DNA of 64,000 nucleotides from Leucoraja ocellata. Taxonomy: Eukaryota. Below are positions 9,301-51,300 of the stretch, piece by piece; position 1 is the stretch's first letter; every line of letters starts with the position of its first letter. Made by a program: the position numbers. The DNA is taken from the NCBI GenBank assembly GCA_036785375.1, contig JAWMAR010003093.1:1-64000 (forward strand). Reading direction: 5' to 3'.

Positions 9301-12300
9301 CACGCTGTTCTTATTAAGTTTCTCCATCTTGCTGAATTGGCAAAGTCATTCACTAATGGCCTTGTTGCCGGTCACCAGTTTGTGCAGCGTTGTAGTTTAG
9401 TTAATTTACATTAGTTTGGTGGAGTTAAAGTAACCTAAACAAATACAATTACAAAAACAATACTAACCAAAAAAACACAAATGAATGACCAGGTACACTA
9501 CACCCACTGGCTCTCCCTTGTCCATTTTCCTACTACCATCCTTAAACAAAATCCAGAAGATTAGTCAAGTATGATTTCCCCTTCGTAAATCCATGCTGAC
9601 TCGGACCGATCCTGTCACTGCTATCCAAATGTGCCGCTATTTCATCTTTTTATAATTGATTCCAGCATCTTCCCCACCACCGATATCAGGCTAACTGGTC
9701 TATAATTCCCTGTTTTCTCTCTCCCGCCTTTCTTAAAAAGTACGATAACTTTTGCTACCCTCCAATCCACAGGAACTGATCCTGAATCTATGGAACATTA
9801 TAAAATTATCACCAATGCAACCACGAATTCTAGAGCCATTTCCTTAAGTGCCCTGGGATGCAGACTATCAGGCCTTGGGGCTTTATTAGCCTTCAGTCCC
9901 ATCAGTCTACCCAACACCATTTCATGCCTAATGTGGATGTAATTCAGTTCCTTCCTCACCCATATCCTCTGGCCACTACTACATCAGGAACATTGTCTGT
10001 GTCCTCCTTAGTGAAGACGGATCCAAAGTACCTGTTCAACTCATCTGCCATTTCCTTGTACCCCATAATAAATTCATTTTTTTCAGTCTTCAAGGGTCCA
10101 GTCTTCAAGGATGTAGTTGAGGCAGGTACTGTCGCAACGTTTAAGAAATAATGCGACAAGTACATGGATAAGATATGTTCAGAGGAATATGGGCCACTCG
10201 TAGGCAGGTGGGGTTTGCAGATGGGGTTCCTTGGTCATCGTGGGCAGGTTGTGCCGGAGGACTATTTTTCACGATGTATGACACTAGAACTCTATGCCAA
10301 CATCGAAGAACAACAAGTCGCTTTCTGCTTGTGCAAGGCACACGTTTCTGGAGTTAACATCCGAGTCTTCAACGTTACTAAATCTCTTTTTCGCTAATTT
10401 GGAAGAACATTCGGCACATCGACGTCTGTCTTGATTATATAGTCTCTCGTGGTAACGTCCACAACGTGAAATGTCAATTCACCACATCGTTCGTTCCAGA
10501 GAATTGAAATATCCTGACCTATACAGTCTCTCTCGGAATTGAACGTCTCCAGTCCTGCAAAAACGTTGCCGTTAATACGCTGCCACTCCCCAGATTAATG
10601 GTATCAATGCGAACATATTGCGATCTGGAGAACATCGCACGTGCGGTCTCGCCAACGTCCCAGACTAGATTGTTAAACTCCACTTACACCCAACTGCGTG
10701 CGATTCCAGCAGTGAAATAAGCCCACACATCAAGCTGCTGAGGAGGAAAAAATCCTATCATCCACATTCAAATTGACTCGCATTGGTTGGAAGCAAATTG
10801 TTCATGAACAAGATGGAGAAAAGGCCCTGTTTCTGTGCTGTGTAACATGCAACTACCACTTACAGTGAGAGTTGGTTCAATATACCTGCCCCCCCCCGTG
10901 AGGGAGAGTATGCGCTGCGTCCCTTTAAATAGTTACCGTCTTATTTTATACTCCTGTCCTCTTTTAGAGACCTATATCCGAGGAACACATTAAAATATTT
11001 CAACTGATCAACTTGTCACATTTTAATTCTGCATAACTCCTCATAGTTTTATTCGCTGCTGAGAGATACCGTTTCTGCATTCTACAGTCCATCTCATAAT
11101 TCACACTGTCCAATATTAGTACCATTCGTGCGAGGAGAGTTGCATACTCCCTAGTTTAAATGGATCCTTAATAAATTATTTCGAAAAATAATATCCCTCC
11201 ACCTGTGGTGTACTGCTCTGTGAAGTTTTTGTCTGTGAATTGCTTAGGTCGAGTGCAGCAAACATGACACTTCTTTCTTTGGTCAAGACTTTCTTCAGGA
11301 TGATGTATCCCCAAACATTTACAGCCGGTGAGATTCTCCTTAACCGATTCAATCATCTTGTACATCAACATTCTTGATATCTCCAACGGATCATTGAATT
11401 GAGAAGATGTCTCCCTAATATCCGGAATAACATCAAATGCTGTTCACCTCTGTGTTTTATGAATTAACACATGTATTTAAAGATAATCTGTTGATCAAGA
11501 ATATTTCTTGCCGTTGTATATTTCCAGTCAGTTGTCACATTACACATTATATTCGCTTATTCTTTACTTCATGAAGTGGCAACAGTTGAAATACATTAAT
11601 GCTGCTGTTGTAGCTGAATTGTATACGATGTCGTCTAGAAGGTTCCCTGTGGTTTACATCATTTAGACCCTGCCAAAAAATGATTATCTTTCCGTTTGAA
11701 AGGCAGCTACACGGATAATGCAAGATGAAATTATTAATGGGTGCATATGAAATGATGGGAACGGTGTCTGGAAAATGCATTGCAAATTCTACAAGTAATA
11801 TACTGTATTACATCGTAGCTTGTGTGCATAAATGATACATGACACGAATTTTGCTGCATCTGTGTGCCACGCGTTACAAGTTAAAAATAGAATGTTCACT
11901 CGTATTTTACAGTTCCTTAGTTCTGTTGGTGCTCAGCTGGTGCCTGAGTAGTGAGCGGTCGCATAATGAGTTTGATCGCTTTGCATCACATGGGAGCAAA
12001 CTATTTGTTCAACGGTCCACAATAAATGTCCGCGGGGAGGTGAACGCACGCAGTCCTTAAGTTTTTTCTAAGAATATAAATATAGCGCTGTTTGACTTCT
12101 CACTTTGACTCCTATAAGTTTTGCACTGCATAACTGCGGACGGCTTGAAGGAAAAATGAGTTGGAAGCGGCATTTGGAAGTTGAATATTATTATTATCCA
12201 ATTCTGGCAGCAATCGGAGTACCCGGTAGGTCAAGGGAACGCAGTAAGTGGGACTGAGACGTGGGATGATGTGTTGATAAAGACAATGTTAAAGGTAAAG

Positions 12301-48300: not shown

Positions 48301-51300
48301 TCCAACATAAAACATTCCCACACAGCAGAATCAAAGTTTCCCACTGTGATTCACGTGTAATTCACGTTGTCCAATCGATAATGATTTCATACACTCAGCC
48401 TCCTCCGCCCAATGAATATAGGCTCAAGATATCAAATGTCCGCCGTGGACACAGGCCCTTCGTCCCACATAATCTACGCATCCCAACGATCACCCCATAC
48501 AGTAGCACTGCACTACAAGCTGGAAACAAGTTACAATTTGCAGATGTTAAAAAAATACGCATTTCGAGTCTGAGAAGAATCCGGAGCACCCGGAGAAAAC
48601 CCAGGCAGTCATCAGAATCAGAATCGGAATCAGAATGCGGTTTATTGTCATTATTTATTTAGCTAATGCAAAGTCCTTTAGCCAAGCAGTTGCCTCTTGA
48701 TCTGCTGTATGAAGGGTGACAAGTCCTCCTTTGAGTCTTTGTTGAGGACATGCATCATTGTTTGCTGCTCACCACATGCACACCGTGAGGTTGGACTGCC
48801 ATTTAAACATAGGTTCAAACGCAATTACGTCCCTGCAGTCATAACAACAACAAAAAAAAAAAATTATCTCAATTGCACACAAACATCCATCACAGTGAAT
48901 CTCCAAACAACTCCTCACTGTGATGGGAGGCAAAAGTATTATGTCTTCCCTTCTCTGTCCTTTATTCTTCTTCCGCAGTCTAGCAGTCAAATTGCTGCAT
49001 CGAGCTGATCGAGGCTTTTGATGTTGGAGCCCCCGGGGGGCGATGGTAAGGACCGCGCCGCGTCGGGCGATAGAGAGTCCTGCTACGGGTCGATTTAAAC
49101 CCCTCGATTCGAGCGGGAGATGTTGCCGTTGCGCAAGCTCCGAAAAACGGTCTCCCGCCAGGGACCTGCGAGCTCCCGATGTTACCGCCCACAGGGTCGC
49201 AGCCGCGCGTCGCCACAGCGCTCCGCGCTCCGACGTCGGACCGCTCCGCGATGGTGAGTCCGCAGGGTGTGCGACTGGAGCCCCGGGGCGATTCCGATTG
49301 GACCCCGCCGGCTGCACGATGTTAGTCCCCAACGACAACGGAGACTCGACAGGGAAAAGGTCGAGTTCGAGTCCCCGTACAGGGAAGAGATTTAAAAGCC
49401 CCCCTTCCCCCGCCCCACACCCCCCCCCCCCCTGCAAACGTCCTCCCTCCACACACACAAACAGAGCTAATAAACCAAAACATACACCTAACAAGGCTAA
49501 AAGAAATAAAAGACAGACAGACCGTAGGGGCCGCTGCCGCGAGGCGCCGCCATTTTGTCCAAACGGGAGAATTTACTAAATCGTTACTGTCAGCACTGTA
49601 CTCAGGATCTAAACGAGACTCTGACAGTGTAATGCCCCTGTCCCACTTAGGAATTAGTTTACCTTCCGGTGGGTCTTCAGTGTAAGGGAGCAACTCTCCA
49701 GCTACGACACTATGCCGCCTAATTTATTCCTACACTGCTCAAACTATCCTTTTTGCGAAGTCCCTCGAGGGAGTATAGTAGAGCTATGATCTAGTGAAGG
49801 TGTTGTCATGTTGCTGTTGTGGAGGAATTCCCAGACTATAGCGATGCAGAGAAGTAATTCAGTACCGGCTCATGGAACAAAAACAGTAATTACTGCATTA
49901 AGGTATTTGCACATTTGTGCAGTCACCCATTGGGAAAGGCGCCAGGCGTATTCAAAGGGTTTAATTTTACTTACCTCACGGGCATATCCATCAGGGTATT
50001 TATTTTAGCAGTTACTGTAGCTATGCATCTGGTGTCTAGTGATATATCCAGCGACACAGATCTGGATTACTCAGCAAGGCCCAATGGTGAACTACCCATC
50101 TGCATTACTGCATCCGCCATTTGCGGTAAATAGTTTGGTTTATTGACTTCCTATTCTTCCCGCGTCCCGGACGATTTTTCTGCAATAAGTGAAGGCCAAT
50201 GACCACCTGAAATTAGAAAGTCTGCCAGGGTGTTGGTGAAGTGGAATTGGTTAACGTAATTGTGACAATTCCGGGCCAGCCAATCCTCCATCCAGTGACA
50301 ACCTAGTTTGTCTGATTAAAACATAAAATTCTGCCGTTATTAACCAGGTTACCCAGGACTGAGAGAGAATGAAACAGAACACACGTTTCAGATCTCTGGT
50401 CACATGTTATATCCCGCTGTCATAAGAGTTCTTGTAATTCTCTGCAGCTCGCGGCTAATGTTATGGAAACGGATTCCGGAGAAGCAGCTCACAGTTGGAA
50501 ACAATAAAACCACCAGGACACCTGCACACAATGAAAGCAAACCGACAACTGAGAAAGAAAAGGAAAGCAGGCACATCCTACCGCATGAGCGGAGCAGAGA
50601 GCAAGACAAAAGCGATGTTTTTGTAAGGGGCTTAACTTGTTTCCATCACTGTGCGCCACAGTGCGCAGTAATAGACTGCAGAGTCGCTGAGATCCAGCCC
50701 TGAGATACTCAAGCTGGTGAACTTAGTCGCGGTATTGAGCTCAATAGAGAAACGAGTGTCAGCGTATTGGGCCTTATCTTCATTGTTGCCGTTGTCTCTC
50801 GACACAGTAAACTCGGGCTGCATGCCTGGATATTGTCGGTACCAGAATAAAGCATATGCTGTCCATGTGGTATCATAGTTGCAGGTTAAAGTCACCGCTT
50901 CTCCTTTTGTCTTCGTCACCGAGGGCAGTGGCTGTGTGACAGATTCTCCGTGAACGGTGACTGTAAAATAAATATATTTAGATAGTAACAGATACCTGAG
51001 TGCTATAAAGTTGCACTTCTCAAGCCAAAATCTCACTGAGTAGGGCGAGGGGAACTGAAAATATTGATCCAGAATTACCTATCAGAAACGCTCCCCACAC
51101 GACACAGATGCCGAGGAAACGCATTTTGACCGTTCACTATGTACTAGCTGAGTTCGAAACTTGAAGAGACAAAAACTGGATCGCGTCTGCTGGTCTCCGG
51201 ATGTTCGCTGTCACTGCCATGTGCCCCCAGTGATGGAGTCAGAGATGTGGGTGGGCAGCGGGGTCTTAGCCAATTAAAATACACGTAGCCGGAATCCAGC

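What the first reader, a model, noticed from the sequence alone, without database searches (positions are those of the whole stretch)
12156..50653. V-(D)J recombination should somatically delete GPCR genes according to V choice
Seen: both RSSs face left (lower coordinates). Inference: if D/J/C lie to the left in the same orientation, using V1 excises GPCR copies 1-2 and using V2 excises copies 1-3. T-cell clones would then differ in GPCR gene content, and intact GPCR genes would sit on excision circles.
Basis: inference. Interest (0 to 1): 0.75.

Follow-up and report, generated by a model that had tools for sequence, protein, structure and literature searches.

The report
Skate TCR V genes interleaved with GPCRs
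Two T-cell-receptor V gene segments of a skate-like fish sit between duplicated copies of an orphan receptor gene, so V-J joining might cut those copies out of some T cells, as is expected for the smell-receptor and trypsinogen genes that lie inside mammalian T-cell-receptor loci.

Summary
Two near-identical TCR alpha/delta-type V segments lie on the minus strand (V1 37453-36983, V2 51124-50654). Each has a split leader, an open V-set exon and an identical RSS (CACAGTG, 22 nt, ACAAAAACA) pointing to lower coordinates. Four copies of a two-exon class-A orphan GPCR ('GPR139-like') are interleaved. G1-G3 are on the plus strand at 12156-14531, 27073-29441 and 41472-43842. G4 is inverted at 61877-59162, beyond an N gap. 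All four are intact.

The decisive condition cannot be tested. The window holds no J segment, no other RSS and no constant-region exon, and no eukaryotic genome resource was available. Teleost TRA/TRD loci rearrange by inversion, so that is a real rival.

The idea is not new in kind. Olfactory receptor genes lie among TRAV genes in human, mouse and sheep, and trypsinogen genes lie between V-beta and D-beta. This is an ordinary new instance: passenger genes co-amplified with V segments by roughly 14-15 kb segmental duplication. Interest is low.

The parts
37408..37453 (-). V1 leader exon (46 nt, MRFLGICVVWGAFLT + 1 nt), donor GTAATT
   Evidence: sequence; coordinates, phase
36983..37289 (-). 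V1 V exon (307 nt), open V-set domain ending ...AVYYCALG
   Evidence: Pfam V-set E=3.9e-14; nearest single-domain solved structures are TCR V-delta-1 and V-alpha chains
36945..36982 (-). V1 RSS: heptamer CACAGTG, 22-nt spacer, nonamer ACAAAAACA, pointing to lower coordinates
51079..51124 (-). V2 leader exon (46 nt)
50654..50960 (-). V2 V exon (307 nt), open V-set domain ending ...AVYYCALW
   Evidence: Pfam V-set E=9.6e-15; 293 of 308 bases identical to V1 over 36983-37290
50616..50653 (-). V2 RSS, identical to the V1 RSS (38 of 38)
12156..12225 (+). GPCR copy 1 (G1), exon 1 (70 nt, MSWKRHLEVEYYYYPILAAIGVP + 1 nt), donor G|GTAGGT
13618..14531 (+). G1 exon 2 (914 nt, rest of TM1 to the stop), 7tm_1
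27073..27142 (+). G2 exon 1
28534..29441 (+). G2 exon 2 (908 nt)
41472..41541 (+). G3 exon 1
42929..43842 (+). G3 exon 2 (914 nt)
61808..61877 (-).
59162..60069 (-). G4 exon 2 (908 nt)
54569..54699 (.). Run of 131 N at the junction between the direct tandem array and the inverted block; left unfilled
54828..63721 (-). Inverted duplicate block: part of the V unit (54828-57906) plus the GPCR unit (58487-63721). No V exon in its readable part

Best explanation
This is a stretch of the V-gene array of a TCR alpha/delta-type locus in a skate-like cartilaginous fish. Segmental duplications of about 14-15 kb have co-amplified a TRAV-like V segment with an unrelated neighbour, a two-exon class-A orphan GPCR of the 'GPR139-like' family that is expanded in cartilaginous fishes. 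Shown: two apparently functional V segments with canonical 23-type RSSs pointing left; four intact GPCR copies; a duplication mosaic with retroelement debris. Inferred: the GPCR genes are passengers with no role in recombination. If J and C lie at lower coordinates on the minus strand, as in tetrapod translocon loci, RAG-mediated V-J joining excises the DNA between the used V and the used J as a non-replicating circle. V1 use would then remove G1-G2 and V2 use would remove G1-G3 on that chromosome. This is the same by-product expected for olfactory receptor genes among mammalian TRAV genes and trypsinogen genes in TRB. No functional consequence is expected unless T cells use the GPCR.
For: Two exact RSS matches against 0.00 expected. 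V-set and 7tm_1 domains. Split leaders and exon phases. From the Cys codon, both V ends carry T8G9 and the heptamer starts at position 15. PMC10322711 gives position 15 for zebrafish tra V genes and says T8G9 is conserved in cartilaginous fish (passages). Among named relatives, three of four carry TCR-alpha names: 'T cell receptor alpha variable 14/delta variable 4', 'T-cell receptor alpha chain V region RL-5' and 'CTL-L17'. The best single-domain solved structures are V-delta-1 and V-alpha chains. All four GPCR copies have ATG, donor, acceptor, compatible phases and no internal stop. Their exon 1 matches the N-terminus of Amblyraja radiata models. Intron indels mostly break the frame (14 of 16 gap runs not multiples of 3), while exon 2 carries only net 6-nt changes. 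Duplication blocks are 88-95% identical. Precedents: OR genes between TRAV genes in human, mouse and sheep (PMC4574546); trypsinogen genes between V-beta and D-beta, 8 in human, 20 in mouse and 5 in cattle (PMC7696796; PMC2685407). TCR genes of cartilaginous fish are described as translocon-type, like mammals (PMC6795676; PMC12227049).
Against: Nothing in the window fixes the position or strand of J and C: no J motif, no 12-spacer RSS, and no C1-set domain among 229 ORFs. Teleost TRA/TRD loci have V segments opposite to J-C and join by inversion, which keeps the intervening DNA. The window itself contains an inverted duplicate block next to an N gap. Some TCR-alpha/delta-type V exons of elasmobranchs lie between IgH clusters rather than in the main array. 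The alpha/delta assignment of the V segments rests on similarity and motifs, not on linkage or transcripts, and antibody light-chain V domains score nearly as well. Substitution-level constraint on the GPCR copies is weak (dN/dS 0.45-1.09 over 277 codons).
Confidence: 0.6

Rival explanations
1. Inversional joining. J and C lie in the opposite transcriptional orientation to V1 and V2, as in teleost TRA/TRD loci. V-J joining then inverts the intervening DNA instead of excising it, and every T cell keeps all GPCR copies.
For: [quoted passage not shown] Atlantic salmon also has a block of 29 TRAV in the other orientation (same passages). This window has a block in inverted orientation.
Against: Reviews describe cartilaginous-fish TCR loci as translocon-type 'similar to mammals', though the passages I saw give no orientation. 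Tetrapod loci are mostly deletional.
Confidence: 0.25
2. Outlying or unused V cluster. The two V segments sit outside the working TRA/TRD array, for example among IgH miniclusters or on an unplaced or misassembled scaffold. They rarely or never rearrange in cis, so no V-dependent GPCR loss occurs.
For: Some TCR-alpha/delta-type V exons lie between IgH clusters in elasmobranchs (PMC12227049 passage). An N gap and an orientation switch inside the window show that the assembly is uncertain here. No J or C lies within 64 kb.
Against: Both V segments are fully intact, with identical canonical RSSs, the T8G9 end and the position-15 heptamer described for fish tra V genes. The 15 differences in the V exon fall mostly in the stretches I take, from recalled Ig-domain layout, to be CDR1 and CDR2, as expected for working paralogues.
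Confidence: 0.1
3. Ig light-chain V segments, not TCR. A lambda-type V with a 23-type RSS in a shark-style V-J-C minicluster would rearrange only within a few kb and delete nothing else.
For: Antibody light-chain V domains in single-chain constructs score about as well as TCR V-alpha chains in the solved-structure search.
Against: No J motif, no 12-spacer RSS and no C1-set ORF downstream of either V or anywhere else in the window. Three of the four named relatives carry TCR-alpha names; the fourth is 'polymeric immunoglobulin receptor-like'. YYCAL with T8G9 and the position-15 RSS fits the fish tra pattern.
Confidence: 0.03

Closest known systems
Olfactory receptor genes interspersed among TRAV genes at the 5' end of mammalian TRA/TRD loci (human OR10G2 and OR4E2; mouse Olfr1507-1509; sheep)
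   Same: Rhodopsin-family 7TM receptor genes unrelated to antigen receptors lie between TCR-alpha V segments. They therefore lie inside the interval removed when a more distal V joins by deletion (PMC4574546 passages).
   Different: The GPCR family differs: distant from ORs, automatically named GPR139-like, two exons. Here the GPCR and the V are co-amplified as repeated blocks rather than being a small conserved cluster at one end of the locus. The orientation of J and C is unknown.
Trypsinogen gene clusters inside the TRB locus (human, mouse, cattle)
   Same: An unrelated multigene family is embedded in, and duplicated within, a TCR locus. It lies between V and D-J-C, so it falls in the interval lost by deletional V-to-DJ joining (PMC7696796; PMC2685407).
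   Different: A different locus and gene family. The trypsinogen position is conserved from mammals to birds, whereas the conservation of this skate arrangement is unknown.
TRD locus nested in TRA, excised as a circle by V-alpha to J-alpha joining
   Same: The same mechanism by which whole functional genes end up on excision circles (PMC4574546 and PMC7696796 passages).
   Different: The excised genes there are themselves antigen-receptor genes, and their loss has a lineage function.
Teleost TRA/TRD locus (inverted V array)
   Same: A fish TRAV array expanded by tandem duplication; the V ends share T8G9 and the position-15 RSS.
   Different: Joining is inversional in teleosts, so the intervening DNA is kept. 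Whether the skate locus resembles this or the tetrapod layout is the open point.

Membership tests
TCR alpha/delta V gene segment (TRAV/TRDV) | Split leader, short intron, then a V exon encoding a V-set Ig domain with the two conserved Cys and the Trp | tested here: met
   Leader 46 nt, intron 118 nt, V exon 307 nt, phases compatible. Pfam V-set above the curated cut-off for both. LTC...WYRQ...YYC is visible in the translation.
TCR alpha/delta V gene segment (TRAV/TRDV) | 23-type RSS directly 3' of the V exon | tested here: met
   CACAGTG, 22-nt spacer, ACAAAAACA in both copies. The spacer is one base short of 23. Two matches against 0.00 expected.
TCR alpha/delta V gene segment (TRAV/TRDV) | Closest relatives are TRAV/TRDV rather than Ig or TRB/TRG V | tested here: inconclusive
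   Three of the four named relatives carry TCR-alpha or TRAV/DV names; the fourth is 'polymeric immunoglobulin receptor-like'. The best single-domain solved structures are V-delta-1 and V-alpha chains, but light-chain V domains score close behind. Most database relatives are unnamed. No tree was built.
TCR alpha/delta V gene segment (TRAV/TRDV) | Fish tra V end pattern: T8G9 and heptamer at position 15 counted from the Cys codon | tested here: met
   TGCGCACTG(G/T)GGCG then CACAGTG in both V segments. Pattern as described in PMC10322711 passages.
TCR alpha/delta V gene segment (TRAV/TRDV) | Linked in cis to TRAJ/TRAC (and TRDD/TRDJ/TRDC), and found rearranged in T-cell transcripts | not testable with these tools
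   No J, D or C in the window.
Class-A (rhodopsin family) GPCR | 7tm_1 domain covering seven helices in an intact gene | tested here: met
   7tm_1 above the curated cut-off in 4 of 4 copies. Exon 1 supplies the start and most of TM1. The joined protein was not built or searched.
GPR139 orthologue | Specific, closest similarity to GPR139 | tested here: inconclusive
   The name comes from automatic NCBI annotation of relatives. Against solved structures, GPR139 is the best full-length match but is weak (E=1.5e-5, 28 bits); CCK-B receptor scores higher over part of the sequence (E=1.1e-7). Best treated as a 'GPR139-like' clade expanded in cartilaginous fishes.
Bystander genes embedded in a TCR locus and lost by deletional V(D)J joining | The gene lies between a usable V segment and the J/C cluster, with V and J RSSs convergent | not testable with these tools
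   The first half is met: G1-G3 lie on the RSS side of V1 and/or V2. The position and strand of J and C are unknown.
Bystander genes embedded in a TCR locus and lost by deletional V(D)J joining | Copy loss in T-cell DNA and presence on excision circles | not testable with these tools
   Needs DNA from thymocytes or T cells compared with non-lymphoid tissue.

The most novel reading that the evidence does not exclude
The skate GPCR copies are expressed in the T lineage. Because V choice sets how many copies a clone keeps, TCR V usage would be physically coupled to the dosage of a signalling receptor. A wider version: the GPR139-like family, with very many copies in cartilaginous fishes, is an undescribed chemoreceptor-type family whose position among TRAV genes parallels the mammalian OR genes among TRAV genes.
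Probability: 0.04. Interest if true: 0.7.

Novelty: new member of a known kind. Interest (0 to 1): 0.2.

Why it matters
If confirmed, this would be a cartilaginous-fish example of unrelated, intact genes being lost from T-cell clones as a side effect of V(D)J recombination. It would also show that V-gene expansion by segmental duplication can carry passenger genes along. That adds a data point on how antigen-receptor loci grow, but it changes no concept. In practice it gives a ready copy-number marker for V usage (paralogue-specific depth over 12-51 kb) in a species with few immunological reagents. It is also a reminder that annotation pipelines miss the 70-nt first exon of this GPCR family.

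Tried and rejected
1. For a time I read G1-G3 as pseudogenes lacking TM1 (premature stops and frameshifts upstream of 'VNLL') and G4 as the only intact copy. That was wrong. The indels lie in a 1.4-1.7 kb intron. As a consequence, the query (339 aa) was an intron read-through ORF whose first ~40 residues are not coding. The unnamed 344-aa hit P0001 has the same artefact.
2. dN/dS over 277 codons from the internal Met gave 0.45-1.09. The counts are too small (Sd 10-21) to separate weak constraint from neutrality.
3. The search for J segments (FGXGT codon pattern, 12-spacer RSS) and a relaxed RSS scan found nothing beyond the two V RSSs.
4. tblastn with the V proteins found no third V; the next best hit had E=0.25.
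5. Pfam over all 229 stop-to-stop ORFs of at least 75 aa found no constant-domain exon. Shorter or split exons would be missed.
6. A Pfam scan of ten long ORFs found only reverse-transcriptase fragments.
7. The 'longer' protein search, aimed at full V-J-C chains to use as J and C probes, returned only merged multi-V gene models.
8. Literature searches for the orientation of V relative to J-C in cartilaginous fish (passages) gave 'translocon, like mammals' but no orientation.
9. Searches for a published GPR139 expansion in sharks and for explicit statements that embedded genes are excised found nothing useful. The phrase used matched no paper.
10. Searches were format or frame errors; I corrected and resent them.
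Full report
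WHAT IS THERE. The 64-kb window is about 41-51% G+C and has one run of 131 N at 54569-54699. A self-comparison shows a mosaic of segmental duplications:
- Block A: 1-10411, similar to 16129-25719.
- GPCR block: 10821-15120, similar to 25723-30041 and 40316-44429, and in reverse to 63721-58577.
- V block: 31479-38112, similar to 45217-51745, with a partial reverse copy at 57906-54828.
- Identities are 88-95%.
The order is therefore A-G1, A-G2-V1, G3-V2, then the N gap, then an inverted (part V block)-G4.

THE V SEGMENTS. On the minus strand, V1 has a 46-nt leader exon (37453-37408), a 118-nt intron, a 307-nt V exon (37289-36983) and an RSS (36982-36945). V2 has the same layout at 51124-51079, 50960-50654 and 50653-50616.
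- Both V exons are open and match Pfam V-set at E=3.9e-14 and 9.6e-15.
- The pattern heptamer, 21-24 nt, ACAAAAAC matches exactly twice in the window, both times here; 100 shuffles gave a mean of 0.00. The spacer is 22 nt.
- The 12-spacer version matches nowhere. A relaxed scan of both strands returns only these two sites.
- V1 and V2 are identical in 38 of 38 RSS bases and 293 of 308 V-exon bases. Of the differences, 11 are non-synonymous and 4 synonymous. They fall mostly in the stretches I take, from recalled Ig-domain layout, to be CDR1 and CDR2, and in the last codon.

WHICH KIND OF V.
- In the search restricted to similar lengths, 43 proteins passed E<=0.001. The best are unnamed Ig-like domains of Callorhinchus milii (52-55% identity), and one hit is named 'T-cell receptor alpha chain V region CTL-L17'.
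- In the search for longer proteins, 64 passed. Most are merged multi-V gene models of bony fishes. Two carry TCR-alpha names (TRAV14/DV4 of Labeo rohita; V region RL-5) and one is called 'polymeric immunoglobulin receptor-like'.
- Against solved structures, the best chains with a single matching domain are human V-delta-1 and TCR alpha chains. Antibody constructs rank higher overall only because two domains add up, and light-chain V domains come close.
- Counted from the first base of the Cys codon, both V ends read TGCGCACTG(G/T)GGCG and the heptamer begins at position 15. They therefore carry T8G9 and the position-15 RSS. PMC10322711 gives position 15 for zebrafish tra V genes and says T8G9 is conserved in cartilaginous fish (passages only).
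I conclude TRAV/TRDV-type with good but not complete confidence. No tree was built and no linkage could be shown.

THE GPCR GENES. Four ORFs match 7tm_1. I first misread them. The long ORFs begin inside TM2 or carry odd N-termini, and upstream I saw stops and frameshifts. It is the ATG of a 70-nt first exon (MSWKRHLEVEYYYYPILAAIGVP plus one base) ending in G|GTAGGT. That peptide matches the N-terminus of Amblyraja radiata family members, MSRLLHLSVEYYYYPVLASIGVP followed by VNLL.
- All four copies have this exon with an ATG and the same donor.
- The introns are 1392, 1391, 1387 and 1738 nt. Each has a polypyrimidine-CAG acceptor directly before TGAACTTG.
- The phases fit (1 + 2), and exon 2 is 908-914 nt without an internal stop. 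By length arithmetic this predicts 325-327 residues, like the family.
- The joined proteins were never built or searched, so no search result here refers to a full spliced model.
- Among the four copies, the intron alignment has 16 gap runs in 1778 columns, 14 of them not multiples of three. Exon 2 has two net 6-nt changes in 914 columns. This argues that the frame is under selection.
- Substitution-level constraint looks weak: dN/dS is 0.45-1.09 over the 277 codons from the internal Met, with small counts.

WHOSE GENOME, WHICH FAMILY. The protein search with the G4 ORF gave 1163 proteins at E<=0.001 among 4502 candidates. About the first 40 residues of that query are intron read-through. Every named protein among the best 120 is from a cartilaginous fish. 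The best named hit is from Leucoraja erinacea (85% identity over 81% of the query), followed by Amblyraja radiata (64%). The window is therefore from a skate or a close relative. I do not take it for human.
'Probable G-protein coupled receptor 139' is the automatic name of these relatives. Against solved structures, GPR139 is the best full-length match but is weak (E=1.5e-5), and CCK-B receptor scores higher over part of the sequence. 'GPR139-like' is a label, not a shown orthology.

WHAT ELSE IS IN THE WINDOW. I scanned all 229 stop-to-stop ORFs of at least 75 residues, on both strands, one by one against Pfam (115, 114). The hits were 7tm_1 in 4, V-set in 2 (the same two also Ig_3), RVT_1 in 6, ALKBH8_N in 2 and GIY-YIG in 1. 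There was no Ig constant domain. No FGXGT-type J motif exists on either strand. The window therefore holds V segments, passenger GPCR genes and retroelement debris, but no D, J or C.

The geometry is as stated. V1 and V2 are on the minus strand with their RSSs toward lower coordinates. G1 and G2 lie left of V1, and G3 lies between V1 and V2. If J and C lie to the left on the minus strand, joining from V1 excises G1 and G2, and joining from V2 excises G1, G2, V1 and G3, as a circle. G4 lies on the other side and would be kept. The intactness of the excised genes also holds.
What cannot be settled is the premise. Reviews and a 2025 study call cartilaginous-fish TCR loci translocon-type, 'similar to mammals' (passages), but I found no statement about V orientation. 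[quoted passage not shown] The same 2025 study notes TCR-alpha/delta-type V exons between IgH clusters.
In this window an inverted duplicate block begins right after the N gap. The V that block should carry would fall in or beside the gap and is not in the readable sequence. That is either a real inverted duplication, which would mean mixed V orientations, or a scaffolding issue. I put deletional joining at about 0.6, inversion at 0.25, an outlying or unused cluster at 0.1, and an Ig light-chain identity at about 0.03.

COMPARISON WITH WHAT IS KNOWN.
- Unrelated genes inside TCR V arrays are documented. OR10G2 and OR4E2 lie between TRAV1-1, TRAV1-2 and TRAV2 in human. Olfr1507-1509 lie between TRAV1 and TRAV2 in mouse. 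OR genes lie around the first TRAV of sheep (PMC4574546 passages).
- Trypsinogen genes lie between V-beta and D-beta, with 8 copies in human, 20 in mouse and 5 in cattle (PMC7696796; PMC2685407).
Loss of such embedded genes from T-cell clones is a direct corollary of deletional joining. I did not find a paper that spells it out for these genes; the one search aimed at this was uninformative. The skate case differs in the gene family and in the repeated co-amplification of V and GPCR. It is a new member of a known kind.

WHAT STAYED UNCHECKED.
- The flanks of the window and the position of J and C, because there was no eukaryotic genome collection.
- Paper supplements, which were closed.
- Expression and splicing of any gene here.
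- The sequence of the N run.

VERDICT. The phenomenon is ordinary for antigen-receptor loci. Interest 0.2.

Noticed in passing
window 54569-54699 and 54828-63721: The run of 131 N sits exactly where the direct tandem array meets an inverted duplicate block (part of the V unit plus GPCR copy G4). The V exon expected in that block is absent from the readable sequence. This is either a true inverted duplication or a scaffolding orientation problem.
   Followed up: partly
GPCR genes at 12156-14531, 27073-29441, 41472-43842, 61877-59162: The GPR139-like family looks greatly expanded in cartilaginous fishes. One search found 1163 proteins at E<=0.001 among 4502 candidates, and all named proteins among the best 120 are chondrichthyan, with many per species. 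Two literature searches found no paper on this expansion. The family could be a candidate chemoreceptor-type family.
   Followed up: partly
window 12226-13617 (G1 intron) and the equivalent introns: ORF callers and gene models mishandle this family. The unnamed 344-aa protein P0001 reads through the intron, and the NCBI model P0002 of Leucoraja erinacea starts at an internal Met in TM2, missing the 70-nt first exon.
   Followed up: yes
window-wide, e.g. 16020-16550, 52679-53347: Retroelement debris. Reverse-transcriptase fragments occur in 6 of 229 ORFs, ALKBH8_N-type matches in 2 and a GIY-YIG match in 1. The GIY-YIG match might point to a Penelope-like element; that link is recalled, not tested.
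   Followed up: partly
about 37650-37680 (minus strand, upstream of V1): A long poly-G run upstream of the V1 leader is much shorter upstream of V2. It accounts for most of the 17 gapped positions in the promoter-side comparison.
   Followed up: no
V1 36983-37289 vs V2 50654-50960: The RSSs are identical (38 of 38). The 15 differences in the V exon are mostly non-synonymous (11 against 4) and fall mostly in the stretches I take, from recalled Ig-domain layout, to be CDR1 and CDR2. This is the pattern expected of diversifying V paralogues.
   Followed up: partly
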